This document shows positions 44,211 through 59,493 of a DNA stretch of 64,000 nucleotides, piece by piece (position 1 is the first letter of the stretch; every line of letters begins with the position of its first letter). Location of the stretch: IMG/VR virus record IMGVR_UViG_3300042318_001133, positions 15,562 to 79,561 of that record; one strand, 5' to 3'. This DNA is from a virus (Duplodnaviria; Caudoviricetes). Position numbers and translations under genes: made by a program. The notes beneath the pieces were generated by a model. The model saw nothing but the letters and a program-made list of their open reading frames with translations. It did not search any database and was not told the origin of the DNA.

Positions 44211-44582
44211 CTACTTTTGATTAGATCGCATCTGCTCAATTCCTCGCTTTATGTTGCTATTAATTATATGATCAGCTACCTTCGACCTTAACTCTTTCAC
44301 TCCCAAATCCTCATGGTTTGATATTCCCAATTTAGATGCCGCCATATGCAACTCTTCCTTGTTCATATCACTATAATGTTTTCCTGCAACCGTTTCTGGC
44401 TTTGATGAAGATTTTCCTTCAGTAACTGGAACCCATTTACCGTCAGCGACTTTCTTGTAGTCACGACCTCCCCAAGATTTAATGGCACCTACCATCTCTT
44501 TTTTCCCCTTCTCAAAGGAACCTAAAATTTGTGAATTTACAATCTCACGTCTACGTGCTACTTCTTGTATTACTTCTTTCAT
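44211..44582 (-). CDS. putative capsid-internal protein (leader + GG-Y-K-GKW module + HeH-like motif)
   Basis: LGSFEKG...GAIKSWGGRDYKKVADGKWVPVTEGK, nearly identical to a segment of 57790..59013. Confidence 0.6.
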   Translation of the reverse strand: MKEVIQEVARRREIVNSQILGSFEKGKKEMVGAIKSWGGRDYKKVADGKWVPVTEGKSSSKPETVAGKHYSDMNKEELHMAASKLGISNHEDLGVKELRSKVADHIINSNIKRGIEQMRSNQK

Positions 44583-44583
44583 A

Positions 44584-45381
44584 TCAACAAGGATCTAAAT
44601 AACTATTATCAAATAAATAATCACCAACATAATTCTGTGCATCCAGTACGTAGTGTGCTCTTCTTGCAACTGCAGAGACTGGCATTTGTTGATCTTCTGG
44701 AACTCCAGCATTGTTAAGTATTGGAGCAACCATCGTATCTCGCGGCAAGTCAATGACGTGATACATTGGAGAATGTATGTAACGTAAAGATACGCAAACA
44801 TTTGGATATGTATCGTATTTGGACGTTAAAATAATTGCATTGTTGCGTATTGAATAATCCTCTCCCTCGATCAGTCTCGTCAATTTACTGTTGGCTGATG
44901 CGAACATGAAAATGTCTTCAATTTCAACAATATCGTATGTCACGTACCCAATATGAACTCCTTTGAATACTTTTAAATATATCGTTTCACTGAAAGCAGA
45001 TCTTGCATCTATTACAGTCACTCGATCCATGTAACCTAACTTATCTACGTCTCGTGCTGTTAGATTTACGGTACCTAAAGTTAATTCTGACCAATCTTTA
45101 TATTGAGTTGAGAGATTCATTGATCGTAAAATCATTCTACTCTCAATTCGATTATAAAATACCCAACCAGAACCTCCACAATTTTGACAGTTAGATAAAT
45201 GATCAATCGTCTCTACCTTACAAGGACACTTAATTGCCTTATCGTGATAGACGCGATATCCTTTCATTTCAATAATCGCGTCGAAATTGCTTTTAATGAA
45301 ATTAACCTGACCCTGTCCTCCTAAATTGGGAATGGTCTGTCTGACTATATTTTGAGGACCACTTTTACCGTCTGCGCTCAT
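44584..45381 (-). CDS. head-tail connector/neck protein
   Basis: AIKCPC...CQNCGGSGW, GYMDRVTV, VIDLPR pattern. Confidence 0.7.
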   Translation of the reverse strand: MSADGKSGPQNIVRQTIPNLGGQGQVNFIKSNFDAIIEMKGYRVYHDKAIKCPCKVETIDHLSNCQNCGGSGWVFYNRIESRMILRSMNLSTQYKDWSELTLGTVNLTARDVDKLGYMDRVTVIDARSAFSETIYLKVFKGVHIGYVTYDIVEIEDIFMFASANSKLTRLIEGEDYSIRNNAIILTSKYDTYPNVCVSLRYIHSPMYHVIDLPRDTMVAPILNNAGVPEDQQMPVSAVARRAHYVLDAQNYVGDYLFDNSYLDPC

Positions 45382-45875
45382 TATGATTGAATATGTAACA
45401 TTTCACAAAGACGTTTCTTTAGATTTAAGATAAACGACTCTGCAGGTTCTTTGACGATGTCATTGTGAGACATCCAAACATATTGATAGTGCTCATCTTC
45501 ATCCAGTATAATAATTGGATCTTTTTCTGAACAAAAACTTAAAAAATAATTACATGGCCCAATCTTAGATGTTGCAACAATCATTTCACCCTCAATATCG
45601 AGACCAGTCTCTTCCAACATTTCTCGAATGGCAGCAAATTTTGGAGTTTCTCCTGGATCAATTTTTCCTCCAGGTAAGCATAATTTGTTCGGCTCGAAAG
45701 AGTCTTCTTTTGATCTGCGCAACATTAACACGCCCATGTGATGCATATAAATCACATCAGCATATTGTTGCTCTTCGACGGCTTTCTCTATAATTGTAGG
45801 ATTGTAAAAAGACTTTTCAATGTTCGATCCTTTAAATGCAGAGATACTGATTGTTAAATTACTTGTTTCTTCCAT
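45381..45875 (-). CDS. NUDIX hydrolase
   Basis: Nudix box GGKIDPGETPKFAAIREMLEETGL; N-terminal IEKS and IEKA motifs. Confidence 0.92.
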   Translation of the reverse strand: MEETSNLTISISAFKGSNIEKSFYNPTIIEKAVEEQQYADVIYMHHMGVLMLRRSKEDSFEPNKLCLPGGKIDPGETPKFAAIREMLEETGLDIEGEMIVATSKIGPCNYFLSFCSEKDPIIILDEDEHYQYVWMSHNDIVKEPAESFILNLKKRLCEMLHIQS

Positions 45876-45886
45876 TTTAAGAGTAT

Positions 45887-46660
45887 TTACAGAGATGTCA
45901 TGTTAAATCCATCATATTTTGCTTTTAATCGCGGGATATTAGTTTTTAGATCGGTTAAATAACCTACAATCCTTGAACCGTATCCCGAGTTAGTAGCAGA
46001 AGATGTTGATGAGATAGATTGAGATAGGCCATCGATACCAATCGACTGTGAAGCGATACCTGCTCCAAGAATAATATCTCCCATTACGTGAAATAGATTA
46101 ATGGAAGCCATCTTACCTACAGCGTTTAGAATATCGCTTGGCGTTTTAGAAAAACCTGTATAGTATGTAGCTTTCCAATAATTAGGAATATGGGCAGCGC
46201 CAAAATAGCCCGATACCGGCATCACTCCCGAATATTGTGCTGCAGTTGCGCCCGAAGGTACTGTATAGAGGTTTCTAAAATACGAAGTATTGTCATTTGT
46301 TTTTCTTGCCGAAAGCCACTCTACCGGATAAACAACCTGCTCTACGTTATTAATGTTTCCAGTTAATGCAATTGCACTGACTACTGGATATGAACAGCGA
46401 ATAAAGCCCCAATCACTATAATCTTGGCGATTGAAATCATGTCTCTCTTCGATAATTTGAGGAGTAAGTTTTAAGTTCAGATACCCCTCTATTTCTTCTT
46501 GAGCATATCGGATCCATGACTTTAAGACGTGCTCTGGAAATTGTTTTCCGTCAGCAGACTTCAAGGGAATTCCAAAGAAATAAAATTCAATTAATTCAGA
46601 GGGACTCATGATAAGTCCCTCGTTTTTTGCAATTCTTATTTTAAAACTTTGTGACGGCAT
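45887..46660 (-). CDS. head-tail adaptor/head completion protein
   Basis: AQEEIEGYLNL, YYTGFSKTPSDI, SQSIGIDGLSQSIS. Confidence 0.7.
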   Translation of the reverse strand: MPSQSFKIRIAKNEGLIMSPSELIEFYFFGIPLKSADGKQFPEHVLKSWIRYAQEEIEGYLNLKLTPQIIEERHDFNRQDYSDWGFIRCSYPVVSAIALTGNINNVEQVVYPVEWLSARKTNDNTSYFRNLYTVPSGATAAQYSGVMPVSGYFGAAHIPNYWKATYYTGFSKTPSDILNAVGKMASINLFHVMGDIILGAGIASQSIGIDGLSQSISSTSSATNSGYGSRIVGYLTDLKTNIPRLKAKYDGFNMTSL

Positions 46661-46670
46661 TTTGTTTTAA

Positions 46671-47159
46671 TTAGATTTTTGTTTTCAAATATGCTACCAA
46701 GTCATCTTTTTTCAAAGATTTCCACTCAGACGAAGGCAATTCAGCTTCTTTTGCTGTTTCTTTCAATGCAGCTAAAGTTAAATCACTCAAATCTACATCA
46801 TCAATTGTATCATCTTCAACAGAAGTAGCCTCAACGACCTCTCCAGTTACGATGTTTACTTTTTCCGGATTCTCTTCAATAGTGCCACCATTTGCCGCAT
46901 CTAATTCTGCAGTAAACGAATCAACGTGAGAATTATCAACCTCTTCAGTCACCTCTTCTTTGATTGTAGCTACTTCAATAATTTCTTTCGGCATACCTTC
47001 ATAAGATAAAGACGAATCTTGAGCAATTAACGTTTCAAGATCTGCCGTATCAACGATAGCCTCTAAATTCTCATCAAACTTTACAATGATCTCTCCAATG
47101 ATACATGATTGACCACCTCTATGAGACTTGCTTGTCGTAATTTTCGTTGTTTCTGACAT
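46671..47159 (-). CDS. acidic protein with C-terminal Rho-N/HeH-like motif
   Basis: DLSDLTLAALKETAKEAELPSSEWKSLKKDDLVAYL; directly after MCP. Confidence 0.55.
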   Translation of the reverse strand: MSETTKITTSKSHRGGQSCIIGEIIVKFDENLEAIVDTADLETLIAQDSSLSYEGMPKEIIEVATIKEEVTEEVDNSHVDSFTAELDAANGGTIEENPEKVNIVTGEVVEATSVEDDTIDDVDLSDLTLAALKETAKEAELPSSEWKSLKKDDLVAYLKTKI

Positions 47160-47184
47160 AATACAATTTTAAATAAATTTTCGA

Positions 47185-47215
47185 TAAATATACCAATAAA
47201 AAAAAGGAGTCACAA
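47185..47215 (-). promoter_or_regulatory. promoter TTG-N20-TATATTTA without operator box
   Basis: GTATATTTATCGAAAA identical to site E; overlaps the MCP terminator. Confidence 0.5.
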
Positions 47216-47231
47216 TTAAGTGACCCCTTTT
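47198..47231 (-). terminator. intrinsic terminator after major capsid gene
   Basis: Minus strand GGGGTCAC-ttaatt-GTGACTCC followed by a T run. Confidence 0.8.
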
Positions 47232-47256
47232 CTTATTTTCAGATTTCTTATAGCGA

Positions 47257-48753
47257 TTATGCTACAGCAGTTCCGATGTTAATGAAACGAATCATTTTTT
47301 TCGGTGCATACAAGATCGGCGTACCGTAAAGTAAACACATGAAACGTTTTGAAGGACTCAATACAGCAAGATCCATTTTCATTAATGGTGCCAATTGTTT
47401 GAATTCCATAACTTCAGAATCTCCTTGAAGTAACATTGCTTGCTCAGTACCTGGCAACCATCTGTTTAAATCAAGAACTAAACCTGCAGTTGCTCCGTCA
47501 TATCCAGCAGCTTTTTCAGCAGCAGATACTTCAAAGATTGGGTACAATAATGCTGTAGCAGCAGTCTCGTCTTTCTTTGAACGGTAAACTACATATCCAG
47601 TTGCAGGGTAAGCACCACCACCATCTGTGAAAGATAATGTTACTTTGTTTCCTGCAGCAACAGTTACTGCAGCAGCACCAACTTGAGTAGGAGTTGTTTC
47701 ACCGTAACGGTTTTTCGCTGCAACAGCGTAAACGTAATCTCCTGCATCAGCAGTAGCGAAACGAGATTTCAATGCACCTGCAGAAGCAGCAGCAAGAGAA
47801 ACAGAAGCAACAACAGCAGGAGCTTTTGTTGAAGTAGCTGGATCAGACAAACGACGTGGTCCTGCTTTAGCAGCAAAGATGTCATATTCCAAATCAATTT
47901 CACCGAATTGAGATTGGAATTTTTGAACTCTTTGACCCATAACTCCATTTGTTAATGCAGCAGTATTTGGTTGGATCAATTTAGAAGCGTGGAACGATTT
48001 TACAAAGTTACTCAACACTACTGGAGGAGCTACAAGTAAATTACCGTATCCAAAGTTTCTAATAATTGCATTGGCAGCATCTTCGATTTCAGCCTCACCT
48101 AAACGACGACCTCTTAAATCGATTACAACTTCAGAATCTTGGTAAGCATCAAGTGTTGCGAACTCATCGTTTGCAGCATGTTGAGCGTAAAGACCTCTCC
48201 ACTCTTGAGGAGTAGTTTTGTCATCACCCCAGAATAAACCACGGTCAGCTTTTCTTAGGATCCATTGGATACCGTTAGTAACCTCACGTTGGATCATATT
48301 TCCAATTTGAGTATTAACTAATTGCATTGGATGTGAAACTGCTTTAGTTACACCTAAGAATTTCACCAACTCCGCACGTCTTACATAGATAGAATCTTCT
48401 TCTTCTGGTAATTCACCTTCGTTGTTGAAACCACCTCTGTCAGCCCCGTAAGACTTTAATTGGTTGTACTCTTCTACTGTATTGTATGCAGCAGCTTTAG
48501 GCATTCTTTTCCAGAAGCGAATATCGCTATCCTTGAATGTAAGAAGTTTTAAGTTCTTTTCAAGAGATTCTGTTTTTAAAGCTCCACCAGCTGTTTCTTG
48601 ATCTGCAAGAGATCTACCAGTAGTACTTCCAGCTTCCATCGCTTTGCTTAATTCAGCTAATTGCTCTGGAGTTGTGCTTGCGTTATCAAACAAAGCTTGG
48701 TTGTCCATAGATCCCGCTTGATAATCTGCCAAATTAATTCCTAATCCGTTCAT
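47257..48753 (-). CDS. major capsid protein (SPO1/Twort-like)
   Basis: ELSKAM, GGALKTESL, YNTVEEY, LAPLMKMDLA, LLYGTPILYAPKK; highly biased codon usage. Confidence 0.93.
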   Translation of the reverse strand: MNGLGINLADYQAGSMDNQALFDNASTTPEQLAELSKAMEAGSTTGRSLADQETAGGALKTESLEKNLKLLTFKDSDIRFWKRMPKAAAYNTVEEYNQLKSYGADRGGFNNEGELPEEEDSIYVRRAELVKFLGVTKAVSHPMQLVNTQIGNMIQREVTNGIQWILRKADRGLFWGDDKTTPQEWRGLYAQHAANDEFATLDAYQDSEVVIDLRGRRLGEAEIEDAANAIIRNFGYGNLLVAPPVVLSNFVKSFHASKLIQPNTAALTNGVMGQRVQKFQSQFGEIDLEYDIFAAKAGPRRLSDPATSTKAPAVVASVSLAAASAGALKSRFATADAGDYVYAVAAKNRYGETTPTQVGAAAVTVAAGNKVTLSFTDGGGAYPATGYVVYRSKKDETAATALLYPIFEVSAAEKAAGYDGATAGLVLDLNRWLPGTEQAMLLQGDSEVMEFKQLAPLMKMDLAVLSPSKRFMCLLYGTPILYAPKKMIRFINIGTAVA

Positions 48754-48816
48754 TTGAATTATTTTAAGATTTGTAAAAATTTTCCGATTTTGATATTACG
48801 ATTTATGCTTTTAATA

Positions 48817-50550
48817 TTATGCAACTACGCGGATTTTTTCATCCACCAATAGTCTGTGTGCAATTTCTGGTTTTAACACTCCAGATGCTTCATACAACGT
48901 CATTGCATTTGCAAACGCCATATTAGCTACTCCGTGTTCTGTAATTCCTGCACGTGAATCTAAGATGTCTAAGATTTGTGCTTTGTGTAGGTTCGTTGAA
49001 AGAGTTGTAATTCCATCGTTGTTAGAATTTTGATCTTTATCGAAACCTTTCTCGATGTATGCAGCAGATGTTGCTGATTTTCTTCCTGGAGTTGAATTCT
49101 CAATTGCAGAAAGACGTCCTTCTAAACTGTCAAAGTTTTCAGACAATGCTTTTTGGATCGTTCCAAGTGCAGATACAGAATCAAGAACTTTTGCATTTTC
49201 AGCTTTAATCAATTCCATTAATGGACTAACATTGTCACCCTCAATACCTTTTTTCACTTCACCTACATTATCGCCTGGATTCTCTGTTCCACCTTCAGTA
49301 GCTGCAGCAGTACCCATTGTATCGCCTTCAGTACCCATTGCTTTCTTAGTCTCGTAAGCATCCATAGCTTTCTTCATTTTAGAAAGTTCGTTGGACATAT
49401 CTTCACAAGCCTTTTTCATTGCATTGTACTCCTCATCGGACATATCTCCTTTTGCAGCAAGATCTTCTTCGTCGTCAGCTTTTTCTGCGTTAGCTTTAGT
49501 TTCAGCGTCTTTTTTGTCGCCATCTTCAGCATAATCTTCAGCAGTATCTTCACCTTTTGAATCTGCATCTGCAGAAGCTTCAGCGTCTTGCGCTTTCGTA
49601 ATATCGTCAGAAGAGTCTTCTGACCCTACAGATTTACTGATTCCTAAGACAGTGAACGCTTTGTCGATAGCTTCTTGAGAGATTGTTTTTTCCATTGAGT
49701 TGTTATTTTCTGATTTATAAATTGTTTCTATAACTGTGTAGATATCTTTAGCTTTTTCGATATCTGCATCGTGAAGATACTGAAAAATCTGACCATAAAC
49801 TTCACCCTTAGTTAAATCTTTTCTTTTCTTCTGCCCAATTTTTTGAGTGTCGATCACTTGACCTCCTAAACTTTCACGTACTACAGATGCACCATTTCCG
49901 GTTGCTTCCATTGCTTTAATCGTTACATTCAAATCCTTATCTACAGTGATGCGCTCTCCGGTTGGTTTTGTGATATCTAAAATGAATTCAGAGTTTCCAC
50001 CATTAGCATCTTGACTGTCTTCAAATTCATAATCTTCAACGTCAGCACCGTGCCCTTTGATGATCTCAGCTAATGTTTGAGAATTCTTTGGAGTTGGAGT
50101 AATGGCACATCCTGTGATTTGTGCTTGTTTAACAATCTTAGGATTCATTGCATCACGCTCAGTCACTTTACCCTCAATACTGAAACCCAAATGACGTCCA
50201 GAATTACTTGATTTAAGCGCCTCTGCAAGTGTATAGATGTCTTTCGCTAAAGGACTATCTGCATACAACTCTCCTTCAATGTATAGCTTCTTGTCGCGAA
50301 TTTCAGCTACTGTAGGTTCTCCTACGATAGCGGCTGGATTCGTTTTTGATTGGTGGTGCCAATTCAAGAAACCATACTTCAAGAAATATTGAAGATCAAA
50401 ACCTTCTGGATCCAAGAATTCACCATCTGAGTCTTCATCTGAAGTAGAGGCAATACCTCCAATCTTCATTACCTTCTTTCCTTTCTCGTCAGTTCCTTTT
50501 GTTAATTCCAAAGGAACGAAAAATCTAAAATCACTTCCTGATTGTTTCAT
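48817..50550 (-). CDS. prohead protease (HK97/S78-like) fused to scaffold
   Basis: GIASTSDEDSDGE, FLNWHH, LGFSIEG, ITPTPKN; acidic coiled-coil C-half with many (I/L)xK(A/G/S) motifs. Confidence 0.9.
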   Translation of the reverse strand: MKQSGSDFRFFVPLELTKGTDEKGKKVMKIGGIASTSDEDSDGEFLDPEGFDLQYFLKYGFLNWHHQSKTNPAAIVGEPTVAEIRDKKLYIEGELYADSPLAKDIYTLAEALKSSNSGRHLGFSIEGKVTERDAMNPKIVKQAQITGCAITPTPKNSQTLAEIIKGHGADVEDYEFEDSQDANGGNSEFILDITKPTGERITVDKDLNVTIKAMEATGNGASVVRESLGGQVIDTQKIGQKKRKDLTKGEVYGQIFQYLHDADIEKAKDIYTVIETIYKSENNNSMEKTISQEAIDKAFTVLGISKSVGSEDSSDDITKAQDAEASADADSKGEDTAEDYAEDGDKKDAETKANAEKADDEEDLAAKGDMSDEEYNAMKKACEDMSNELSKMKKAMDAYETKKAMGTEGDTMGTAAATEGGTENPGDNVGEVKKGIEGDNVSPLMELIKAENAKVLDSVSALGTIQKALSENFDSLEGRLSAIENSTPGRKSATSAAYIEKGFDKDQNSNNDGITTLSTNLHKAQILDILDSRAGITEHGVANMAFANAMTLYEASGVLKPEIAHRLLVDEKIRVVA

Positions 50551-50759
50551 TATGATAGCATATTGTCTGTTGGTTCATACTGCTCTAAAATTGGCTTAAA
50601 TTCCTCTTCAGAGTATCCGATCGTGTTCAATGCTTGTTCGTGAGAATACTTCAGATCACGCATATATCCTTTATATGTGTAGTATGCTGCACAATCTGCT
50701 GCAGCTTGACTTTCTACTGGACCAAATCCATCGTCACCTACTAATTTTTCTTCTGCCAT
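50550..50759 (-). CDS. hypothetical acidic protein (69 aa)
   Basis: Coupled ORF. Confidence 0.5.
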   Translation of the reverse strand: MAEEKLVGDDGFGPVESQAAADCAAYYTYKGYMRDLKYSHEQALNTIGYSEEEFKPILEQYEPTDNMLS

Positions 50760-50998: not shown

Positions 50999-50999
50999 C

Positions 51000-53177
51000 T
51001 TAATATTGGATATATGATTCGAAACGATCTCTTTGAATTGGATCTTTTAAATTCAAGAAACCTTTCCAGTTATTGCCATTCATAACAATCTTAGCAGGCT
51101 TCCCTCCGTTAATTTGACATATATAATCCATTGGGAATCTTGTTGTCTCAGGATTGTTTCTGTAGAAATCTTCCACTACCTTTTTAGCCTTCTCTGCGTC
51201 GTCTCGCGTAACTGTATACTTAGTTCTGGTACCTCTTTCATCGATATCCATTTCACGACCAACGTAGTGAGCGAAAGCGTTTGCTTTCTCAAGTGCCATA
51301 TTTTTCGTTGCAGTAAATCCATAACGACCCCAAGCGTATGCTCCAGATGTAATGTTGGCAGATACTTCTAATTCAGTAATTCCTGCACGACGATATTGTT
51401 TGTTGAGAATTCTAAAGATTTTCTTACCAAGACCACCTCCTTGATTAACGTCACTCCCTACCTTGAAGTAAGCGTGATATACGGATGTTCCACCCTCACT
51501 TTGAGTAGGTGAAGTGAAATCTTTTTGCGTTCTAAAATTTCTTTCAAGTTTAAATCCTCCAGTTCCTGTTATAAGTAACACAAAAGCTCCTCGCGGATTA
51601 ACTGTAATCGATTTAACTAATCGCTGAACTCCTGCCGCTCTAATCTCATTAGATAGAGAGTTTACCATTTCACCTAAGTCAAGGTTTGGAAAATGTTCGT
51701 TATATTGCTGAACCCAACCATCTGTCATGTCGCTGGTTCCAGTTAACCTCATTGCTGCCAGATTTCGAATCATCGTAGAGTCCATTGTAGATGGATTTCT
51801 TACAACTGGAGGTGCTCCAGGAACTGTTGTTTGAACAGATTGCCCAGTTACAACCTTCTCAACTTTACCTCCACGCGTAGGAGGAATTTGTTTATAAATC
51901 TGAGTACCATCTGGCAATGCAATTGTCAATCGACCCTTACCGTCAGCTTGTCTCCATACTGACTTTACTCTTCCGTCAACCAATTGATTATCTTTTGTGA
52001 AACGAACCGCATCTCCATTATGGATTTGATTTTCATGAGTAATGTCTGTGGCAGTTTCGGTAGATGAATTCATGTCTACTTCGTGTGTTTGAGAGAGACG
52101 TCTCAAATCAGCCTCGTGCACTGTTGCATTTGCAAGTTCAGCTTGTCTTGCGCGATCTCTTTCAATTGCAGGATCCACCCATTCGCTAAATCTTTCAGAT
52201 TGATTCCAGTTAGGAGAAGATGTTCGCGGCAACTTCACAGACTTGCCTTGATCGAGAGATGCGTTTGGTCCGTAAGTATATCCAGTTGGTGATGTATAGT
52301 TGTCGATAAATTTCGCAACAATATGATCTGGATGTATTTCAGTAATCTTCAACTTTGAAGCGTTCAGTGATGTTCCAGAACTCCATCCTTTGAAATGAGC
52401 GTTGATTAAATCACCTTCACTCATTCTATGCTCAAATGCCTGTTGATCTAAAAACGTTGCAGCTTTCTCTGGCGTCTTTTCTTCAAATTTCTTGTATACT
52501 GTTTTAGTATATACTCGCCCATCTCTTGTAGTTACTTGAATTCTCGTTGGAGTAAGATGAGAAAGATTATGAATTGCTTTCTCTAACAATTCACCCTTCA
52601 ACAACCCCTCTTCCTTTGCCGTAGCTAAAGTCATTGCTGATTCAATATAATCTTCTTCGGAAACGATTATAGGAGCATCTCTACGTTCCGTAAGGGCTCC
52701 CATATCGATTGCCTTTGTCAACATTTCACATACTTGTTGAAATGAGATAGATTCTACATTGGTGTCGAAAGATAAGTGTTCGAAGTAATTCTTCTCAGCA
52801 ACAACTTCAGCTTTTTCAATTGAAGGATTGATGATTAAATTAAGTTGATGTTGAAAGTCTATGATATCACTTTCAGCTTTTTGAATCTCTTGATTGATAT
52901 CAGCCAATTCTTTAAAGAAATTTCTCTCATATCGATTAAATCTTCGTTGAATTGATTCTTTATCCTCATCCTGAGACGCTTTCTCGAATACTTGAGCTGT
53001 TTCATCATTAACCTTATCGAAAGCCTTTATAACTTCATCTTTTGAAGATTGAAGAAATGTAACTTTCTCTTGAGATACTTTGATGGATTCTTGTAATTGA
53101 GAAATAAGACCTTTTTGCAGGTTTTTTTCTTTACTTCCAAACACATTGGATAGAATGGTCTTAAAATTAAAATTCAT
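51000..53177 (-). CDS. multidomain putative injected protein with C-terminal GNAT acetyltransferase-like domain
   Basis: VYHAYFKV...NQGGGLGKKIF (QxxGxG), GITELEVSAN, GAYAWGRYGF; N-terminal 200 aa rich in (I/L)xK(A/G) motifs. Confidence 0.7.
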   Translation of the reverse strand: MNFNFKTILSNVFGSKEKNLQKGLISQLQESIKVSQEKVTFLQSSKDEVIKAFDKVNDETAQVFEKASQDEDKESIQRRFNRYERNFFKELADINQEIQKAESDIIDFQHQLNLIINPSIEKAEVVAEKNYFEHLSFDTNVESISFQQVCEMLTKAIDMGALTERRDAPIIVSEEDYIESAMTLATAKEEGLLKGELLEKAIHNLSHLTPTRIQVTTRDGRVYTKTVYKKFEEKTPEKAATFLDQQAFEHRMSEGDLINAHFKGWSSGTSLNASKLKITEIHPDHIVAKFIDNYTSPTGYTYGPNASLDQGKSVKLPRTSSPNWNQSERFSEWVDPAIERDRARQAELANATVHEADLRRLSQTHEVDMNSSTETATDITHENQIHNGDAVRFTKDNQLVDGRVKSVWRQADGKGRLTIALPDGTQIYKQIPPTRGGKVEKVVTGQSVQTTVPGAPPVVRNPSTMDSTMIRNLAAMRLTGTSDMTDGWVQQYNEHFPNLDLGEMVNSLSNEIRAAGVQRLVKSITVNPRGAFVLLITGTGGFKLERNFRTQKDFTSPTQSEGGTSVYHAYFKVGSDVNQGGGLGKKIFRILNKQYRRAGITELEVSANITSGAYAWGRYGFTATKNMALEKANAFAHYVGREMDIDERGTRTKYTVTRDDAEKAKKVVEDFYRNNPETTRFPMDYICQINGGKPAKIVMNGNNWKGFLNLKDPIQRDRFESYIQY

Positions 53178-53215
53178 TTTCGAGTTGCAAATATTATTAA
53201 TATCTTATTTTAATG

Positions 53216-53233
53216 TATTTAGCCGGCTAAATA
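53216..53233. repeat. 18-bp perfect palindrome
   Basis: TATTTAGCCGGCTAAATA is its own reverse complement. Confidence 0.9.
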
Positions 53234-53429
53234 GGAATATAATCCGTTAAGAGGCTATTAAGCTTGAGAGGCTTTCTTTAACCGGCTTTTAACCGCTCCC
53301 TTCCCTTCCCGATGTAAAGGTAGATTGAAAATATTTACCTGCAACGGGACAGATTGAAATGTAATGGTACTGTTGAATCTTCTTTTCACAATTTACAGAT
53401 GTTTAATAATTTTTCTTCACTCCAAGTAT

Positions 53430-53951
53430 TTATAGGACAATATTTCGCTCATAAAGAATAAAGTCTCCTGAGATGGTCTTAGCTTGGCCAGATTTATTGG
53501 TGATGCGAATCAAATAATTTGTATATTTTTTCAATATAATTTCAGCACCATCGCGCACTGGACCTGCCCCAATTGATCCAGAAGACCTCCCTCCAGAACC
53601 TCCAGGAACGAAAATCTTCTTCAATAGTGTTCCGGTAGATGTGATTGTTGGTAAGTGAAATGCTTGAGACTTTGGAGTAAGTATACTATTTCGATTGACA
53701 TTGAACATTGATAATCCTGATCCAGTCGACGATGTGATTGCGTCTTCGAAAATTTCAACATAAATATCACCTCCCCCTGCAGCCGAGAAAGTTAAATGTG
53801 ATTGAAACCCATCTGTAACTATTAAAGTGTCGGAAGATGCGTTATTTGCAACTCCCTCATCTAAATGAGTGAATGTAAATGCTTGACCGGCATGACCTCT
53901 TTGTTCGGTCTCATTGACGGTAGTTTGAATTAATCCTATAACTTCGCCCAT
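53430..53951 (-). CDS. putative virion accessory protein (173 aa)
   Basis: Beta-rich with Gly-rich loop; follows decoration-like genes. Confidence 0.5.
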   Translation of the reverse strand: MGEVIGLIQTTVNETEQRGHAGQAFTFTHLDEGVANNASSDTLIVTDGFQSHLTFSAAGGGDIYVEIFEDAITSSTGSGLSMFNVNRNSILTPKSQAFHLPTITSTGTLLKKIFVPGGSGGRSSGSIGAGPVRDGAEIILKKYTNYLIRITNKSGQAKTISGDFILYERNIVL

Positions 53952-53953
53952 AA

Positions 53954-54346
53954 TTATGAGTGTTTGGCAACAAAATATAGGCGAACTAAACCTGCTAAAA
54001 TTGCACCCTTAGTAATTTTTACACCCAAATACTTACCACTAAAAGTTGCAGTTGCTAATGTACCACTTTGATTCGCAGCAGTTAAGGAGTTTTGAATTCC
54101 CAAAGTATCCCAATTTAACCCATCGTTAGATTGCGCTAAATCAACTGTACCATTAAACGATCCCGTCAATCCTACAGCAACTACTTGACATGATACTATT
54201 TTAGCACCTAAAGAAAATGCATCGTCAATCGAAACTACTTGTGTAGATCCAATCAATGACATATCTACTTCAACGAAACATTCTCCAACCGGAGATCCCA
54301 TTGAAGATGATGCGTTTTTCACTGAATATGAATTGTTTCCTAACAT
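53954..54346 (-). CDS. putative virion accessory beta-sandwich protein
   Basis: Likely ATG at 54346 (MLGNNS); the track start overlaps a hairpin. Confidence 0.5.
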   Translation of the reverse strand: MLGNNSYSVKNASSSMGSPVGECFVEVDMSLIGSTQVVSIDDAFSLGAKIVSCQVVAVGLTGSFNGTVDLAQSNDGLNWDTLGIQNSLTAANQSGTLATATFSGKYLGVKITKGAILAGLVRLYFVAKHS

Positions 54347-54359
54347 GATAAAAAGATTA

Positions 54360-54383
54360 AAGCCCAAGAGCGATCTTGGGCTT
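54360..54383 (-). terminator. hairpin terminator
   Basis: AAGCCCAAGA-gcga-TCTTGGGCTT, 10-bp perfect stem; TAATCTTTTT follows on the minus strand. Confidence 0.7.
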
Positions 54384-54391
54384 AATTAATA

Positions 54392-55267
54392 TTATGCAAC
54401 CGTAATTGCCAATGCTTGAGTGTTTGCTTGTCCTAAATCATCTGTACAAGTAACTGTGAAAGATGAAGCGCCAGTCGCTGAAGGATTACCTGCAATGATT
54501 CCAGTTTTTGGTGCTAAAGTCAATCCTTCTGGAAGTGTTCCGGTAGATACTGTCCAAGTTTTACCTCCGTGAGCACCAACAACTGTCAATGTAACTGAAT
54601 AAGGAGTATCTGCACCTGCAATCGTTACAGTCGTTGTAACTCCTGCATTTCCGTCTGTAGCGTTTGTAGCTACACCCTTCACTGCATTTGTAGACGTTAC
54701 TGTAGCAGTATCTGCAGTTGCTACGAATGCATTTAAACCATCTAAAGCAGCAGCAACTGCAGTAGCAACTTGTGCGTTTGTTGCTCCAGTTGCGATAGCG
54801 ACAGGAATTGCAACCTTGCCTGCAATTGCAGGATCTACACCTGCAGAGTTTACGTTAAACCAAACGTAATAAGCAACAGTTGGAGAATTGATTGTGAAAT
54901 ATTTATTGTTCAATGAACCTGCAGTATCTGCAACACACAAAATTGTCGTTCTTTCAGCAACTGAAACTGTACCAGCAGCCAATGGAGACGTTGAAGTGAT
55001 ATCTAATGCAGTAGCAAGTGCAATTAAATTTGTAGTCGTTCCTGCCTTCATGTCAATCACATCTAAAATTAGATTATTGGCAGTACAGAAAGTTTTAAAT
55101 GCAACTAAAGACGAATTCTTTAAAGGAAAATTGATACCGAAATGAAGTTCTGCAGCATTTAACCCAATAACCTCCATTACTGTAAATGCATCGTTTGATC
55201 CAGAAAGATCAGTTTTGTACTCAACTCTTGCAGTGTTATCTGCATTTCTAATCACTAATGTTTTCAT
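54392..55267 (-). CDS. head decoration-like protein with C-terminal Ig-like (He_PIG) domain
   Basis: WTVSTGTLPEGLTL...TGIIAGNPSATG.SSFTVTCTD. Confidence 0.75.
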   Translation of the reverse strand: MKTLVIRNADNTARVEYKTDLSGSNDAFTVMEVIGLNAAELHFGINFPLKNSSLVAFKTFCTANNLILDVIDMKAGTTTNLIALATALDITSTSPLAAGTVSVAERTTILCVADTAGSLNNKYFTINSPTVAYYVWFNVNSAGVDPAIAGKVAIPVAIATGATNAQVATAVAAALDGLNAFVATADTATVTSTNAVKGVATNATDGNAGVTTTVTIAGADTPYSVTLTVVGAHGGKTWTVSTGTLPEGLTLAPKTGIIAGNPSATGASSFTVTCTDDLGQANTQALAITVA

Positions 55268-55315
55268 GTAAAAGATTTTTATATTAATATTGACCTTAAT
55301 TGGCCAATAAAAATA

Positions 55316-56251
55316 CTAAATCTCAGTAACATCAGCCCCAACTTGAACTTTGATTTTAGATTTTCGTTGGACTTTTCGTTCGTAATCTGTAGATGGAGTT
55401 GAGAATGATCGAGTAGACGGATCCCAATCATATCCTTCTGGCACATCTGCCAATGTACATCTACACCAAGGATGTAGAGGACCAATTACGGGAAGCCAAT
55501 TGTCAACTTTCTTACCCACGTTGGTTCCGTTAGCTTGTAGAGTTGATAGCTTGAAGATTTTCGGTTGTGATCCAATTCCTGCCGTAAGAAAATGACTAAT
55601 ACAATGACGACAAGCGCCAGGATAGACGTCTTTATAGACCAGAGCATCTTTTCCTTTTTCTCGTTCAATACCTGCAGCGCGTCCTTGATCGAATGCACTG
55701 TGTAGTACATAATCACTTATACGACCAAAGTCACGTGACCAGTCTTCAGTCTTACGTCCCAGAGCACTTACCATATCGCGAACAGATCCTCGATTGATTA
55801 AAGTCTCTTCTGCGGTATCTTGAATGATTTTCTCGTAGCGAGCTCGCTGCCTTTGATCTGCCTCAATGTGAGATTGATCGAAGTCGGCTTTGATCTTGTT
55901 TCCTAATCCTCGAATGTCAGAATAGGAATGTGTTTTTAACGCTTCCAGAGAGTCTTTTTCTCTTGTATTTAAAGGAATGAACCTACCCGAATCTAAAAAC
56001 TGTTTAAATGCAGGATAATCGAGCTTTTTTGCAGCTGGTTGACTGAGACTGTAGCTCAGCAATCCAAATTTGAAGGCATGTTCAACTTGAGAATTGTCTT
56101 TTAGTCGATCTACGTCAATTCCGTAAGATCGAAGCAGTGCTTTATCGTTAGGTTGCAGTACGTCAAATCCAACATGCTGGGCTGTAAATAAGATGTGATA
56201 CTTATCTATAACCTTCATTAACTCTTCAATTTGACGTGGAGTGAAAATCAT
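55316..56251 (-). CDS. head morphogenesis protein (MuF/SPP1 gp7-like)
   Basis: RISDYVLHSAFDQGR, GACRHC, PLHPWCRC; likely start MIFTPRQ at 56251. Confidence 0.85.
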   Translation of the reverse strand: MIFTPRQIEELMKVIDKYHILFTAQHVGFDVLQPNDKALLRSYGIDVDRLKDNSQVEHAFKFGLLSYSLSQPAAKKLDYPAFKQFLDSGRFIPLNTREKDSLEALKTHSYSDIRGLGNKIKADFDQSHIEADQRQRARYEKIIQDTAEETLINRGSVRDMVSALGRKTEDWSRDFGRISDYVLHSAFDQGRAAGIEREKGKDALVYKDVYPGACRHCISHFLTAGIGSQPKIFKLSTLQANGTNVGKKVDNWLPVIGPLHPWCRCTLADVPEGYDWDPSTRSFSTPSTDYERKVQRKSKIKVQVGADVTEI

Positions 56252-56329
56252 ATACTGTCCTATAATAAACAGCAAAGTTCGGACATTTATTTAGATTGCC
56301 CGAACTTTCTGCTCAAAAGATGATATTGA

Positions 56330-57787
56330 TTAGATGCGATCTAATCCTAAATGCGCCAATACTTTCGGAAATGCCTCTTGAACACTTGCCGTTGAATTTT
56401 GTTTAACGTGTTGAATTGCGTCTTTAATGCTTTTACCACTCTGAATCGCGCCAATTAAACTCTTAGTAGCTGCTACATAAGTGCCGCCCTGTAATTGACC
56501 ATCGAAATGTCCAGCGCCATACATTCCTCCAGTAGAAGATGATCTACCACCACCACCAAGCTTAACAAAACCACTATCTGAATCCACTTGAATAGGTTTT
56601 CCGTTAATGGAAGCCTCTCCTTTTGGATTGATAGACATTTTCACATTACCTTGCTCTGTTGTAGTTGTTCCTACATAATCTCTTCGTAGATTATTGATTG
56701 CTCGCAATCCTTCTTCGTGCTGTCTTGGAGTAAGTTTTGCGTAACCTCGAGCTTTTTTCTTATCACTCTCAATCGACGCTTCAGCTTGATTCAAATACTG
56801 CGTTCTACCAGCAATGCTTAATTGATTCATTGTAGTTTTCACTGCATTATCAATTGGCGTTTTTGCAAGTGTTTGAATGCCAGGAACTTCGATCATGTCT
56901 GAGCGACTACCTCCAATGCCCCTTGCAGGAATTTTCGTACCTCCAGGAACTGTTGCTGTGTTTTTTGTCGCCGAAGTAGATGTTACTGCAGGCTTTGCTG
57001 GTGTCGTTGATGTAGCCGTTTCTGGAAAGTGTTTCTCAAGAGCCTCTTTTACTTTTTGATTTTGAATAGCAAGAGAAGATCTCTTGTAATTCTCTTTCAC
57101 ATCTGCAGTTAATTGCTCTTTTGATTTTGGACTATATCCAGTTTGCCCGTACTTAGGAGCTGCTGTAGTGCTACCTGTTTCTTTTGTTGGGAATCCATGT
57201 TTCGTTGCAAATTTCTTTGCCTCTTCTGGACTTGAGAATTGCATATCAACTTGATGCGATCCATCCGTCGCTCCAAGTTCATGTACAGCACTTTCACCTT
57301 TTCCTCTTTGGCTAACTTCGTAAGTTTTACCTTCACGAGGTTTCATTAAATCTCTACTTGCATTTGAAGTAGGTTGTGCCACTTCACTATATTTAGTGTA
57401 CGTGTTCGGTCCCGACTTTACTTGCTTTTTAGTCAACTTACCTTGCTCAACAAGTTTATTCATTTTAGCCATCACTTTCGATTCATCGGCAGTGTTGCCA
57501 GAAAACGGATGATCTAAAAATTGACGATGATTGAAAGATTCACCTCCTTGCGATGCATTGTGTTCAGCAGCACCTGCTACGTGAGATTGTGCCATTGCAC
57601 CAGTTCCTTTTCCGTGATACTTCCATCCGTTTGGAGTTTTGATGTATTCGCGACCACCAAAGGTTTTGATAGCTCCAATTACCTGAATTTCACGTGCTTT
57701 TTCAAGCTCATCTGCCTCACTGAATGAGTGAAAGATGTTGTCGATGCGATCTTGCTGTGCTTTTAGTATTTCATCTCTATGGTTCAT
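56330..57787 (-). CDS. putative capsid-internal protein A (shared leader)
   Basis: MNHRDEILKAQQDR...SF...ELEKA then GAIKTFGGREYIKTPNGWK. Confidence 0.65.
   Translation of the reverse strand: MNHRDEILKAQQDRIDNIFHSFSEADELEKAREIQVIGAIKTFGGREYIKTPNGWKYHGKGTGAMAQSHVAGAAEHNASQGGESFNHRQFLDHPFSGNTADESKVMAKMNKLVEQGKLTKKQVKSGPNTYTKYSEVAQPTSNASRDLMKPREGKTYEVSQRGKGESAVHELGATDGSHQVDMQFSSPEEAKKFATKHGFPTKETGSTTAAPKYGQTGYSPKSKEQLTADVKENYKRSSLAIQNQKVKEALEKHFPETATSTTPAKPAVTSTSATKNTATVPGGTKIPARGIGGSRSDMIEVPGIQTLAKTPIDNAVKTTMNQLSIAGRTQYLNQAEASIESDKKKARGYAKLTPRQHEEGLRAINNLRRDYVGTTTTEQGNVKMSINPKGEASINGKPIQVDSDSGFVKLGGGGRSSSTGGMYGAGHFDGQLQGGTYVAATKSLIGAIQSGKSIKDAIQHVKQNSTASVQEAFPKVLAHLGLDRI
57749..57780. repeat. 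32-bp direct repeat, copy 1 (encodes the leader)
   Basis: ATCTTGCTGTGCTTTTAGTATTTCATCTCTAT identical at 57749..57780 and 58975..59006. Confidence 0.95.
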
Positions 57788-57789
57788 AT

Positions 57790-59013
57790 TTATGATTTTA
57801 GTCCGTGTTTTTTAAGTGCACTCACGATTGATCGCTGCTCTTCTGCTGGATATTCATCACTAAAAACGTCTTGAAATTCATTATGAATGTCATTAACATT
57901 CATTCCAGATTTCACAGCATGTCCTATGATTTCGTCAGCTTTATCGTTACCTCGAGCAAAATGATCTCCAACGTGTTCCGCTACAGAATACGCATCATGA
58001 ATTCCATTCTCTTCCATATATTTTTTAGATTCGGCTTCAGAGTCGGTTTTAATTTCACTTAAATATTCATCTAACGCACGCATAGCTTGATTTACGTCTT
58101 TATTGTCACCACCACCAAATGCCGAATCTTCAGTCCATGGATATTGTTTAGCATCTTCATATGGCATACCAGCACTTGCAGCTGCTTCTGCAATTAGATT
58201 GTTTACTTTATCGTGAACCTGTTCACTTTCAGGATCGTCAAATCGCTGTTTAAGTGCTGATTTTAAATCGTTTTTAATGGCATTGAGGTCTTTTCGTGGC
58301 TCCGTCTTCGGTTTATTAGCTTTACCGTTGACGATCTCATCTACCCCCGCATCATTCTGTGCTTGAATCTTTTTACCTAAACCTTCTGCTATCTTACTTA
58401 ACATTTCTTCAGCGGTTGCCGGATCTGTTAGGGCTGGAATTTTTTCAACAAAATTGATCTGTACAGCATCTTTAGCAGGCATTCCCATAGACATTACGAA
58501 AGACTGTACAGATTTATTTACTGCCTTTCTGGCAAAATTACCTAAAGGACCTTCTTGTGTCAGGTATGATGCATTTACTTTGACGGCATTTATAGATGAA
58601 TCAAAATGCATCTGTTGTGCGTCGTTCATTTCGACTGTTGTATTAGATTTTCCCTCACTTGAAGGGCCCTTATCATCTTTAGGTTCTTTTGATTTGTCAC
58701 TTGAATCTTCTTGACCTTTACTTTGCTTACCTTCAGTTACAGGAACCCATTTACCTTCATCGATTTTTTTATATCGCACTCCACCATGTTCACGAATCTC
58801 TCCAATGGTACCCTTCTTTCCCTTCTCAACGGAATCGTTAAAGTTGCTGGCAATTCCCAATCGTCGAGCCTCAATTGCTTTTGCAATGTAGTTATCGTTA
58901 TCGACATCTAACGCAACATCTACATCTACTATTGTTCTGTTTTCTATAAACGAACCAACCATGTGATTCATTCTATCTTGCTGTGCTTTTAGTATTTCAT
59001 CTCTATTTTTCAT
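57790..59013 (-). CDS. putative capsid-internal protein B (shared leader)
   Basis: MKNRDEILKAQQDR...GSF...IAKA...VEKG then GEIREHGGVRYKKIDEGKWVPVTEGK. Confidence 0.65.
   Translation of the reverse strand: MKNRDEILKAQQDRMNHMVGSFIENRTIVDVDVALDVDNDNYIAKAIEARRLGIASNFNDSVEKGKKGTIGEIREHGGVRYKKIDEGKWVPVTEGKQSKGQEDSSDKSKEPKDDKGPSSEGKSNTTVEMNDAQQMHFDSSINAVKVNASYLTQEGPLGNFARKAVNKSVQSFVMSMGMPAKDAVQINFVEKIPALTDPATAEEMLSKIAEGLGKKIQAQNDAGVDEIVNGKANKPKTEPRKDLNAIKNDLKSALKQRFDDPESEQVHDKVNNLIAEAAASAGMPYEDAKQYPWTEDSAFGGGDNKDVNQAMRALDEYLSEIKTDSEAESKKYMEENGIHDAYSVAEHVGDHFARGNDKADEIIGHAVKSGMNVNDIHNEFQDVFSDEYPAEEQRSIVSALKKHGLKS
58975..59006. repeat. 32-bp direct repeat, copy 2
   Basis: Identical to 57749..57780. 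Confidence 0.95.
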
Positions 59014-59028
59014 AAGATCTTTTTTTTG

Positions 59029-59059
59029 TAAATATATAAAGTATATCTTTTAACTGCAA
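59029..59059 (-). promoter_or_regulatory. promoter/operator site F
   Basis: Minus strand TTG-cagttaa-aAGATATAC-ttt-ATATATTTA, same spacing as site A. Confidence 0.65.
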
Positions 59060-59067
59060 CCTTTATT

Positions 59068-59493
59068 TTATTTTTGCGTAGAATTATCTTTCGCCTCCTG
59101 ACTTTTCTTATGAGCAGCCAAATGAACACTTAAAACGCCAACAGCATCGCCAGTCTGTTTCAATTTGCGTGCAGTATCTCCAGATGCAGCAGTCTTACCT
59201 GCCAATCTTTCACCCTGCTTTTTCAACTTATCATGAACCTCAGATAGTGCCATTTGAGCTATCTTGTGTGTAGTTGATACGTGTGCACCGTGCTTCGCTA
59301 AAGCCTCATCTACGTGAGCAATACCGGTCTTAGTGTGTGCATAAATTGCAGTTCCATTAGCTGTATGTCCAATCACTTGGCCGCCCTTTGAGCCTTCACC
59401 GCCTTTTGACAGTTCATTTGCGTTTGTAAACGATCCAACGATATGTGTTCGTCGGTCCATTTGTGCTTTTAAAATATAATCTCGTGCGTCCAT
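59068..59493 (-). CDS. putative capsid-internal protein C (shared leader)
   Basis: MDARDYILKAQMDR...GSF...ELSKG. Confidence 0.65.
   Translation of the reverse strand: MDARDYILKAQMDRRTHIVGSFTNANELSKGGEGSKGGQVIGHTANGTAIYAHTKTGIAHVDEALAKHGAHVSTTHKIAQMALSEVHDKLKKQGERLAGKTAASGDTARKLKQTGDAVGVLSVHLAAHKKSQEAKDNSTQK

What the first reader, a model, noticed from the sequence alone, without database searches (positions are those of the whole stretch)
44211..59493. Family of cargo proteins sharing a capsid-targeting leader
Three adjacent genes begin M..RD(E/Y)ILKAQ(Q/M)DR..(I/M)..SF..(E)(L/V)xK(A/G); two share an identical 32-bp DNA stretch. 44211..44582, 12 kb away, has a related RR....LGSFEKG leader, and 62808 starts RQSRLNLSLF...IEKA. 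After the leader the bodies are unrelated. This resembles the T4 capsid targeting sequence: a portable leader that recruits diverse payloads to the prohead and is cut off by the protease. It may be a new packaging signal, usable for protein delivery.
Basis: partly seen in the sequence, partly recalled or inferred. Interest (0 to 1): 0.8.

Follow-up and report, generated by a model that had tools for sequence, protein, structure and literature searches.

The report
Cleavable leaders on phage head cargo
Three neighbouring genes in the head-gene block of an uncultured phage start with the same short helix, which ends at the likely cut site of the phage's capsid-maturation protease. They are therefore probably proteins loaded into the capsid and trimmed there, a new variant of a system known from phage T4, though no experiment has tested this.

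Summary
Observation confirmed. Three tandem minus-strand genes (59068-59493, 57790-59013, 56330-57787) lie in the head module of an ~80-kb phage with an SPO1-like head. All three begin with the same ~23-residue helix (core RDEILKAQQDR). BLASTP finds no similarity between their bodies, and the 32-nt identical run is real.

Each leader ends in hydrophobic-x-Lys|Gly/Ala. This site aligns with the point where the homologous phage 812 capsid protein is trimmed (VVK|SFQ; PDB 9row versus 5lii). It recurs near the N-terminus of 9 of 23 head-module proteins, against 2 of 70 others.

Straight after the cut comes one of two conserved tags: a basic beta-hairpin or a glycine-rich tag. The cut-site-plus-hairpin cassette occurs in ~2,000 protein clusters. 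It often appears 2-4 times per protein, between enzyme domains of phage 'polyvalent' proteins (ART, kinase, topoisomerase, NUDIX).

It is not shown that the leader itself is the address. Many relatives have only 6-10 residues before the cut, so the retained tag may be the universal element.

Earlier notes of this scan describe the same system on other DNA. Verdict: new variant of a known kind (T4 CTS, phiKZ/SPN3US propeptides, P1 Dar).

The parts
59068..59493 (-). Leader gene A, 141 aa: leader helix, predicted cut after K30, glycine-rich tag, short body
   Evidence: ORF; leader alignment; tag
59404..59493 (-). Predicted propeptide of gene A (residues 1-30), ending E-L-S-K|G, the same tetrapeptide as the capsid protein site
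59338..59403 (-). Glycine-rich tag of gene A (about residues 31-52). The same tag follows x-K|G in 4 related loci and lies inside 5 of the top 150 profile hits (two of them shown polyvalent)
57790..59013 (-). Leader gene B, 407 aa
58822..59013 (-). Predicted propeptide of gene B (residues 1-64): leader helix 1-23, a 40-residue insert, then the site V-E-K|G
58726..58821 (-). Hairpin tag of gene B (residues 65-96)
   Evidence: micro-domain HMM E 3.5e-15
56330..57787 (-). Leader gene C, 485 aa; ortholog P0001 shares 61% identity over the N-terminal part only
57698..57787 (-). Predicted propeptide of gene C (residues 1-30), ending L-E-K|A
57605..57697 (-). Hairpin tag of gene C (residues 31-61)
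   Evidence: HMM E 6e-14; tblastn to Chryseobacterium phage MA9V-3
58975..59006 (-). 32-nt run identical to 57749-57780 (nt 8-39 of both CDSs)
44211..44582 (-). 123-aa protein: weakly related leader helix (residues 2-25), F-E-K|G, hairpin tag (strands at 34-52), C-terminal helical HeH/Rho-N-like part
   Evidence: AlphaFold model with mean pLDDT 82; fold hits
62808..63125 (-). 105-aa protein with a second leader class and predicted cut I-E-K|A at residues 28-31. Its N-terminus and both sites are conserved in the L004 ortholog
45381..45875 (-). NUDIX hydrolase with a second-class leader (residues 5-23) ending I-E-K|S, and a second site I-E-K|A
   Evidence: Pfam NUDIX 2e-16; leader HMM built from another phage gives E 3.5e-5
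47257..48753 (-). Major capsid protein. Predicted propeptide is residues 1-37 (48643-48753), cut at L-S-K|A. Its N-terminus resembles the second leader class
48817..50550 (-). Prohead protease (residues ~6-165) fused to an acidic scaffold-like tail carrying I-E-K|A and I-E-K|G
   Evidence: phrog_1028 E 1.4e-47; tblastn to Herelleviridae proteases
61169..62791 (-). Portal protein, with a predicted N-terminal site I-Q-K|A at residues 26-29
   Evidence: Pfam Phage_portal 3.8e-22

Best explanation
The three tandem genes, and 44211-44582, encode proteins that are built into the prohead as precursors. Each has four parts: an N-terminal amphipathic helix (the leader), a hydrophobic-x-Lys|Gly/Ala/Ser site, a small conserved tag that becomes the new N-terminus, and a variable body.

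The SPO1-like prohead protease (48817-50550) cuts after the Lys, as it does in the capsid protein, and so removes the leader. The leader most likely helps the precursor co-assemble with the scaffold or core, as the T4 capsid targeting sequence does.

The retained tag is the more universal element. It may dock the mature protein on the capsid wall or DNA, mark it for ejection, or help the protease find the site.

Shown: the shared leader, site and tags; where they lie in the genome and how widely they are distributed; and the match of the site to a known capsid-protein cut in a homologous system. Inferred: cleavage in this phage, packaging, and what the leader and tags do.
For: - Leader family: shared by 3 genes here and 4 in L004 (HMM E down to 2e-11). 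Further members and variants appear among database representatives (P0098, P0116, P0123, P0090).
- Selection: identical residues use the same codon only about half the time, so the peptide itself is under selection.
- Bodies: similarity within the family is almost wholly confined to the first 25-75 residues.
- Cut site: PDB 9row (phage 812 capsid protein, 439 aa) starts at SFQ, where the 463-aa precursor 5lii reads VVK-SFQ. That Lys falls in an invariant L-x-K column shared by the capsid proteins of this window, MA9V-3, DAC19 and SPO1 (A4).
- Protease and capsid protein are homologous to those of Herelleviridae.
- Motif counts: [ILVFM]EK[AGSN] occurs 14 times in 5,930 head-module residues (2.3 expected from shuffles) and 5 times in 19,287 other residues (6.0 expected); Fisher p 5e-6.
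- N-terminal sites: present in 9 of 23 head proteins and 2 of 70 others, p 3e-5.
- Independent phage: MA9V-3 shows the same motif 8 times in its protease-scaffold protein and before its hairpin tags.
- Wider distribution: the site-plus-hairpin profile hits 1,974 representatives at E<=1e-3. Of 308 copies, 283 start with hydrophobic-x-K-[AGS].
- Context of the long hits: they carry ART-PolyVal, Kinase-PolyVal, LPD1, RadC, Topoisom_I, SNF2 plus methylase, NUDIX and SAM-lyase domains, with the cassette between domains.
- Structure: the AlphaFold model gives a helix at 2-25 ending exactly at the Lys, a loop, then a three-stranded sheet.
Against: - There is no virion proteome, N-terminal sequence or genetics for this phage or any close relative.
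- The motif was defined after looking at the data.
- The motif alone is not enough for cleavage. The capsid protein also has L-E-K-N at 64-67, in a segment that is kept in mature phage 812 capsid protein.
- In related loci the motif is about 3 times over shuffles on both sides of the portal gene, so that contrast is not significant (p 0.19).
- The start of chain 9row is taken as the mature N-terminus from the deposited sequence. I found no paper that states it.
- Many relatives have only 6-10 residues before the site, so a long leader is not needed by the system as a whole.
- The bodies of the three window proteins match no Pfam, PHROG or NCBIfam family, so 'payload' says nothing yet about activity.
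Confidence: 0.6

Rival explanations
1. The retained tag (hairpin or glycine-rich), not the leader, carries the address or docking function. On this view the leader is a lineage-specific propeptide, for example one that keeps the cargo inactive or soluble until it is inside the prohead.
For: The site and tag are constant across ~2,000 clusters, while the stretch before the first site varies from 6 to over 200 residues. Tags recur inside polyproteins, where no leader precedes them. In phiKZ, the segments just after protease cuts in gp93 and gp162 are the parts seen bound to the inner capsid wall (PMC11297242). The best fold match of the hairpin, though weak, is a 34-residue chain of the phiKZ capsid (8y6v_I, E 0.34).
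Against: One tag per polyprotein would be enough for loading, yet each fragment has one, which points to a role after cleavage. The leader peptide is itself under purifying selection. A second leader class is shared between the capsid protein N-terminus and cargo, which suggests that leaders do bind something.
Confidence: 0.3
2. The tag is a recognition element on the C-terminal side of the cut that recruits the prohead protease to cargo sites. It is neither an address nor an anchor.
For: A tag follows nearly every predicted cut in cargo proteins (283 of 308 copies), including internal ones.
Against: The predicted sites in the capsid protein, scaffold and portal have no tag. Two unlike tags serve in the same position.
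Confidence: 0.15
3. These are ordinary tandem paralogs of a structural head protein whose N-terminal domain is kept for structural reasons. There is no cleavage and no cargo role.
For: The genes are tandem. One pair shares a 32-nt identical run that suggests recent duplication or gene conversion. The bodies have no recognisable enzyme domains.
Against: The bodies cannot be aligned. The same N-terminal cassette sits on a NUDIX enzyme and between enzyme domains of polyvalent proteins elsewhere. The helix ends exactly at a motif that matches the capsid maturation site.
Confidence: 0.1

Closest known systems
Phage T4 capsid targeting sequence (CTS) of internal proteins IPI-III and Alt, removed by prohead protease gp21 (reviews PMC3012670, PMC9026906, listed; details from my own knowledge)
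   Same: A short N-terminal leader is shared by unrelated head-internal proteins. It ends in the cleavage motif of the phage's own prohead protease and is carried by genes in or near the head module.
   Different: There is no sequence similarity. The cut here is after Lys in hydrophobic-x-K|G/A/S, not after Glu in L/I-x-E. The protease is SPO1-like, not gp21-like. The leader is about 23-64 residues, not about 10. A conserved tag remains on the mature protein, and the same cut-plus-tag cassette also works inside polyproteins.
Propeptides and multiple gp175/gp245 cuts in inner-body and ejection proteins of phiKZ and SPN3US (PMC11297242, PMC10052503, PMC5694885)
   Same: Many head-internal proteins are cut at a common motif by the prohead protease. 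The segments next to the cuts bind the inner capsid wall, and cleavage separates functional parts.
   Different: The motif differs (S/A/G-x-E there). Those phages are jumbo phages with a different protease lineage. No shared leader family or tag of this kind is described there.
Polyvalent proteins of phages and conjugative elements (Iyer et al. 2017, PMC5512222)
   Same: Long relatives of the cassette are polyvalent proteins with ART-PolyVal, Kinase-PolyVal, LPD1, RadC, NUDIX and similar domains, a class predicted to be packaged and injected.
   Different: That paper proposes processing by metallopeptidase domains within the proteins themselves. My term searches of the paper turned up no cut-site-plus-tag cassette, and the tag has no Pfam model. 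The three window proteins are not themselves multi-enzyme proteins.
Phage P1 Dar anti-restriction proteins loaded into the head through N-terminal signals and processed (PMC9024508 and PMC12810830, listed; details from my own knowledge)
   Same: N-terminal regions direct accessory proteins into the head, and several of these proteins are proteolytically processed.
   Different: The proteins and phage lineage are unrelated. No common leader-plus-tag grammar is known there.

Membership tests
T4-type capsid-targeting leader system (works-like comparison) | One N-terminal leader shared by otherwise unrelated proteins encoded in the head module | tested here: met
T4-type capsid-targeting leader system (works-like comparison) | Leader ends in the motif at which the phage's prohead protease trims the capsid protein | tested here: met
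   Gene A ends E-L-S-K|G and the capsid protein has E-L-S-K|A. This column aligns with the phage 812 cut, VVK|SFQ. The link is by homology; nothing was measured in this phage.
T4-type capsid-targeting leader system (works-like comparison) | Leader is removed in virions and is sufficient to load a foreign protein | not testable with these tools
   Needs virion N-terminomics and reporter fusions
T4 CTS / gp21 family (homology) | Cut after Glu in L/I-x-E by a gp21-type protease; leader similar to that of T4 IPIII | tested here: not met
   Sites are hydrophobic-x-K|small. The protease matches phrog_1028 and the proteases of SPO1, phage K and A511 relatives.
Herelleviridae-like (SPO1-like) head module | Capsid protein, prohead protease and portal homologous to those of SPO1 and phage 812 | tested here: met
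   The capsid protein matches SPO1 Gp6.1 (PDB 9vel) at 2.5e-81 and the phage 812 capsid protein at 3e-20. The protease tblastn search matches 759 records, mostly Herelleviridae. The closest phages are Bacteroides DAC19/SJC03 and Chryseobacterium MA9V-3.
Polyvalent proteins (Iyer 2017) | Two or more effector or enzyme domains in one polypeptide, in a virion-gene context | tested here: not met
   The three window proteins have no Pfam, PHROG or NCBIfam domain. Their cassette relatives do meet this feature.
Any described domain family for the hairpin tag | Match to a Pfam model | tested here: not met
   No Pfam hit for five 40-41-residue tag segments, even at E<=10. No significant fold match.
MuF / SPP1 gp7 minor head protein (for neighbour gene 55316-56275) | Match to a Phage_Mu_F profile | tested here: not met
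   No Pfam, PHROG or NCBIfam hit. There is only a remembered resemblance of an H-P-x-C-R-C motif.

The most novel reading that the evidence does not exclude
The leader, the cut site and the two retained tags would form a modular 'load, cut, keep or deliver' grammar used by phages with SPO1-like heads across several bacterial phyla. Leaders, some copying the capsid protein's own N-terminus, would bring precursors into the prohead. The protease would cut after Lys at every cassette. The tag exposed on each fragment would then dock it to the capsid wall or DNA for later ejection. This would explain how polyvalent effector proteins are packaged and processed, and would give separable, portable labels for loading chosen proteins into capsids.
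Probability: 0.3. Interest if true: 0.75.

Novelty: new variant of a known kind. Interest (0 to 1): 0.55.

Why it matters
Leader-directed loading of capsids, followed by protease trimming, is textbook for T4 and documented for phiKZ-like phages. For the very large class of polyvalent phage proteins, how they are packaged and cut apart is still unsettled: Iyer et al. 2017 proposed processing mainly by peptidase domains inside the proteins themselves.

This locus offers a small, readable example of a different answer. A helix leader is followed by a Lys-specific cut site that matches the capsid protein's own site, and then by one of two undescribed tags. The same cassette is found in about 2,000 protein clusters.

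A cultured relative, Chryseobacterium phage MA9V-3, carries the site and hairpin tag, so the idea can be tested directly by virion proteomics and reporter fusions.

Tried and rejected
Searches and tools that gave nothing:
- Megablast of the region against phage records found nothing.
- A portal search of IMG/VR with the single protein found nothing. An alignment query was needed.
- A word-based homolog search with the first 60 residues of gene C gave only one close ortholog.
- Pfam, PHROGs and NCBIfam on the cargo bodies and on 55316-56275 gave nothing.
- An alignment of 44 long proteins failed, so Pfam was run on 12 of them directly.
- Fold searches of the 123-aa model gave no match at E<=0.001.
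- Literature searches found no paper stating the capsid-protein cut site for Herelleviridae. I used the deposited PDB sequences instead.

Weak control:
- Comparing motif counts upstream and downstream of the portal in related loci was not significant (p 0.19). Gene order varies, and both sides exceed shuffles about threefold.

Ideas considered and rejected:
- L-E-K-N at capsid protein residues 64-67 as the maturation site. The aligned segment is kept in mature phage 812 capsid protein, and the site is L-S-K|A at 35-38.
- Leader similarity as only a recent duplication. Synonymous codons differ in all pairs but one.
- Bacteroides phages DAC19/SJC03 as carriers of the leader. None was seen.
Full report
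**Setting.** The window is bases 15562-79561 of a single 79.6-kb contig. All genes lie on the minus strand. The finding sits in a myovirus head module containing:
- the portal, 61169-62791 (Pfam Phage_portal 3.8e-22);
- a prohead protease fused to an acidic scaffold-like tail, 48817-50550 (phrog_1028, 1.4e-47);
- the major capsid protein, 47257-48753 (phrog_752, 1e-86).

The capsid protein and protease are homologous to those of Herelleviridae: SPO1 Gp6.1 (PDB 9vel) at 2.5e-81 and the phage 812 capsid protein at 3e-20. The closest phage records are Bacteroides phages DAC19/SJC03 (47% identity) and Chryseobacterium phage MA9V-3 (42%). Megablast finds no near relative.

The three tandem genes 59068-59493 (141 aa), 57790-59013 (407 aa) and 56330-57787 (485 aa) begin with the same leader, core RDEILKAQQDR.
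- BLASTP detects only residues 1-24 as similar (E 3e-6).
- The 32-nt identical run covers nt 8-39 of the two larger genes.
- An HMM built from these three leaders alone finds four further leader genes in tandem in L004, an IMG/VR contig with the same gene order and 71% portal identity. E-values run from 2e-11 to 6e-8, and no other ORF among 3,140 scores below E 0.08.
- More members and variants appear among database representatives (P0098, P0116, P0123, P0090).
- Across the seven leaders, positions with the same residue use the same codon only about half the time, except in the one pair with the 32-nt run. The peptide is therefore under selection and is not merely a recent copy.

**The end of the leader looks like a protease site.**
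- Every leader ends in hydrophobic-x-Lys followed by Gly or Ala.
- In the whole contig, [ILVFM]EK[AGSN] occurs 14 times in the 5,930 residues of the head module. Shuffles expect 2.3, and the maximum in 500 shuffles was 7. It occurs 5 times in the other 19,287 residues, where 6.0 are expected (Fisher p 5e-6).
- A site within residues 6-80 is present in 9 of 23 head-module proteins and 2 of 70 others (p 3e-5).
- MA9V-3 repeats the pattern independently. It has eight copies in its protease-scaffold protein, and further copies in front of its hairpin tags.
- The link to the protease comes from solved structures. The phage 812 capsid protein is deposited as a 463-aa precursor (5lii) and as a 439-aa chain (9row) that starts at SFQ, directly after VVK in the precursor.
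- That Lys lies in an invariant L-x-K column shared by the capsid proteins of this window (L35-S36-K37|A38), MA9V-3, DAC19 and SPO1 (A4). Gene A ends with the same E-L-S-K followed by Gly.
- Not every copy can be a cut site. L-E-K-N at capsid protein residues 64-67 lies in a segment that mature phage 812 capsid protein retains.

**What follows the cut.**
- In genes B and C and in 44211-44582, the residues after the Lys form a conserved ~30-residue tag, I-G-x-I-R-x-W/F/H-G-G-x-x-Y-x-K-x-x-x-G-x-W.
- An HMM of this tag finds about 30 distinct proteins in at least 16 related loci. The tag is nearly always directly preceded by hydrophobic-x-K-G/A/S, and some proteins carry two or three copies.
- Gene A instead carries a glycine-rich tag, G-G-E-G-S-K-G-G-x-V-I-G-H-T. 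It recurs after x-K|G in four related loci and inside five of the top 150 profile hits, two of which were shown to be polyvalent.
- An AlphaFold model of the 123-aa protein (mean pLDDT 82) shows a helix at residues 2-25 that ends at the Lys, a loop, a three-stranded sheet at 34-52, a disordered linker, and a helical HeH/Rho-N-like C-terminus.

**Wider distribution.**
- A 41-column profile of the site plus hairpin (A5) was searched against 1.84 billion representatives. It hits 1,974 proteins at E<=1e-3 and 257 at E<=1e-10.
- Among the top 150, 126 have 2-4 copies, and 283 of 308 copies begin with hydrophobic-x-K-[AGS].
- Eight of the 12 long hits scanned carry polyvalent-type domains: ART-PolyVal, Kinase-PolyVal, LPD1, RadC/JAB, DUF5661, topoisomerase IB, SNF2 helicase with an Eco57I-type methylase, NUDIX and SAM lyase. 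The cassette lies between the domains. The other four had no Pfam hit.
- The contigs holding these hits are up to about 116 kb, several in the phage size range. One hit is an NCBI Treponema protein named 'LPD1 domain-containing'.
- The tag has no Pfam model, and my term searches of the 2017 survey of polyvalent proteins turned up no such cassette. That paper proposes processing by built-in metallopeptidases (PMC5512222).

**Is the leader the address?**
- The predicted stretch before the first site is 10, 20, 31, 75 and 226 residues at the 10th, 25th, 50th, 75th and 90th percentiles. Many proteins have only 6-10 residues there. The RDEILKAQ helix is therefore one lineage's version of a variable region, and the constant parts are the site and the tag.
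- Other phages have their own leader families on tandem genes, for example L016 and L019.
- One such class is shared by four L016 proteins, the NUDIX hydrolase of this window (E 3.5e-5) and, more weakly, the N-termini of capsid proteins. This does suggest that leaders bind a common partner in the prohead.
- The phiKZ capsid structure is a useful analogy. There, the segments just after protease cuts in gp93 and gp162 are the parts bound to the inner capsid wall (PMC11297242). The best fold match to the hairpin, though weak, is a 34-residue chain of that capsid (8y6v_I, E 0.34).

**Verdict.**
- Well supported: these are head-internal precursor proteins clipped by the prohead protease after Lys.
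- Plausible but untested: the leader is the targeting signal. The retained tags are at least as good a candidate.
- The system works like the T4 CTS but is not homologous to it.
- Earlier notes of this scan describe the same cut-plus-tag system on other DNA. I treat them as leads that agree with my reading, not as evidence.

Noticed in passing
window 47257-48753, 45381-45875, 62808-63125; L016:12832-17575: A second leader class, L-x-L-N-L/I-x-x-F/Y followed in some cases by K-G-S-x-I-E-K. It is shared by four tandem L016 proteins and the NUDIX hydrolase of this window (E 3.5e-5), and a related start (M-x-x-L-G-I-N-L-x-D-Y) opens the window's capsid protein. A strict pattern hits 6 times in 355,000 ORF residues, 5 of them at residue 4-5 of head proteins. 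The 62808-63125 protein resembles this class only by eye; neither the pattern nor the HMM retrieved it.
   Followed up: partly
window 61169-62791: The portal has a predicted N-terminal site I-Q-K|A at residues 26-29. The same position carries L-E-K|A in MA9V-3, I-E-K|S in DAC19 and I-Q-K|A in L004, so the portal may also lose a short propeptide. Portal N-termini were among the best sub-threshold hits of the leader HMM.
   Followed up: partly
window 59338-59403; L013:1641-2036, L014:8902-9945, L015:8012-8428, L044:12154-12690: A glycine-rich tag (G-G-E-G-S-K/R-G-G-K-V-I-G-H-T-K-S-G-K-P-I-Y) always follows x-K|G. It also occurs inside P0006, P0049, P0053, P0113 and P0127 (P0006 and P0113 shown polyvalent). 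It is an alternative to the hairpin tag.
   Followed up: partly
window 60708-61172: A holin-family gene (Pfam Phage_holin_4_1, 4.7e-7), followed by small ORFs that look membrane-associated by eye, lies between the portal and the cargo genes. This is an unusual place for lysis genes.
   Followed up: no
window 55316-56275: This 319-aa gene, just downstream of the leader genes, has an H-P-W-C-R-C motif that recalls MuF/SPP1 gp7 minor head proteins. No Pfam, PHROG or NCBIfam model matches it. MA9V-3 and DAC19 have a gene of similar size and N-terminus at the same place.
   Followed up: partly
window 54392-55267: This 291-aa protein has a C-terminal He_PIG Ig-like domain (5e-11). It may be a head decoration protein.
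   Followed up: no
window 51000-53177: This 725-aa head-module protein has four hydrophobic-E-K-A sites (residues 64, 120, 198, 629) plus L-Q-K-G at 20. It has no hairpin tag and no Pfam hit at E<=0.01.
   Followed up: no
L020:12800-15529: This cargo protein (909 aa) with the hairpin tag contains a LAGLIDADG/homing-endonuclease segment (4.5e-9), possibly an intein or an inserted endonuclease.
   Followed up: no
L006:13433-15901, L010:3546-5126, L005:9409-10971: Three tagged cargo proteins give sub-threshold matches to the P-loop region of the kinesin motor model (E 6e-5 to 9e-4). This hints at a P-loop NTPase payload.
   Followed up: no
L001:14001-14708 (MA9V-3): The NUDIX protein of MA9V-3 carries I-E-K|S plus a weak hairpin tag (E 0.03) at its C-terminus, whereas the NUDIX protein of this window carries a leader at its N-terminus.
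   Followed up: no
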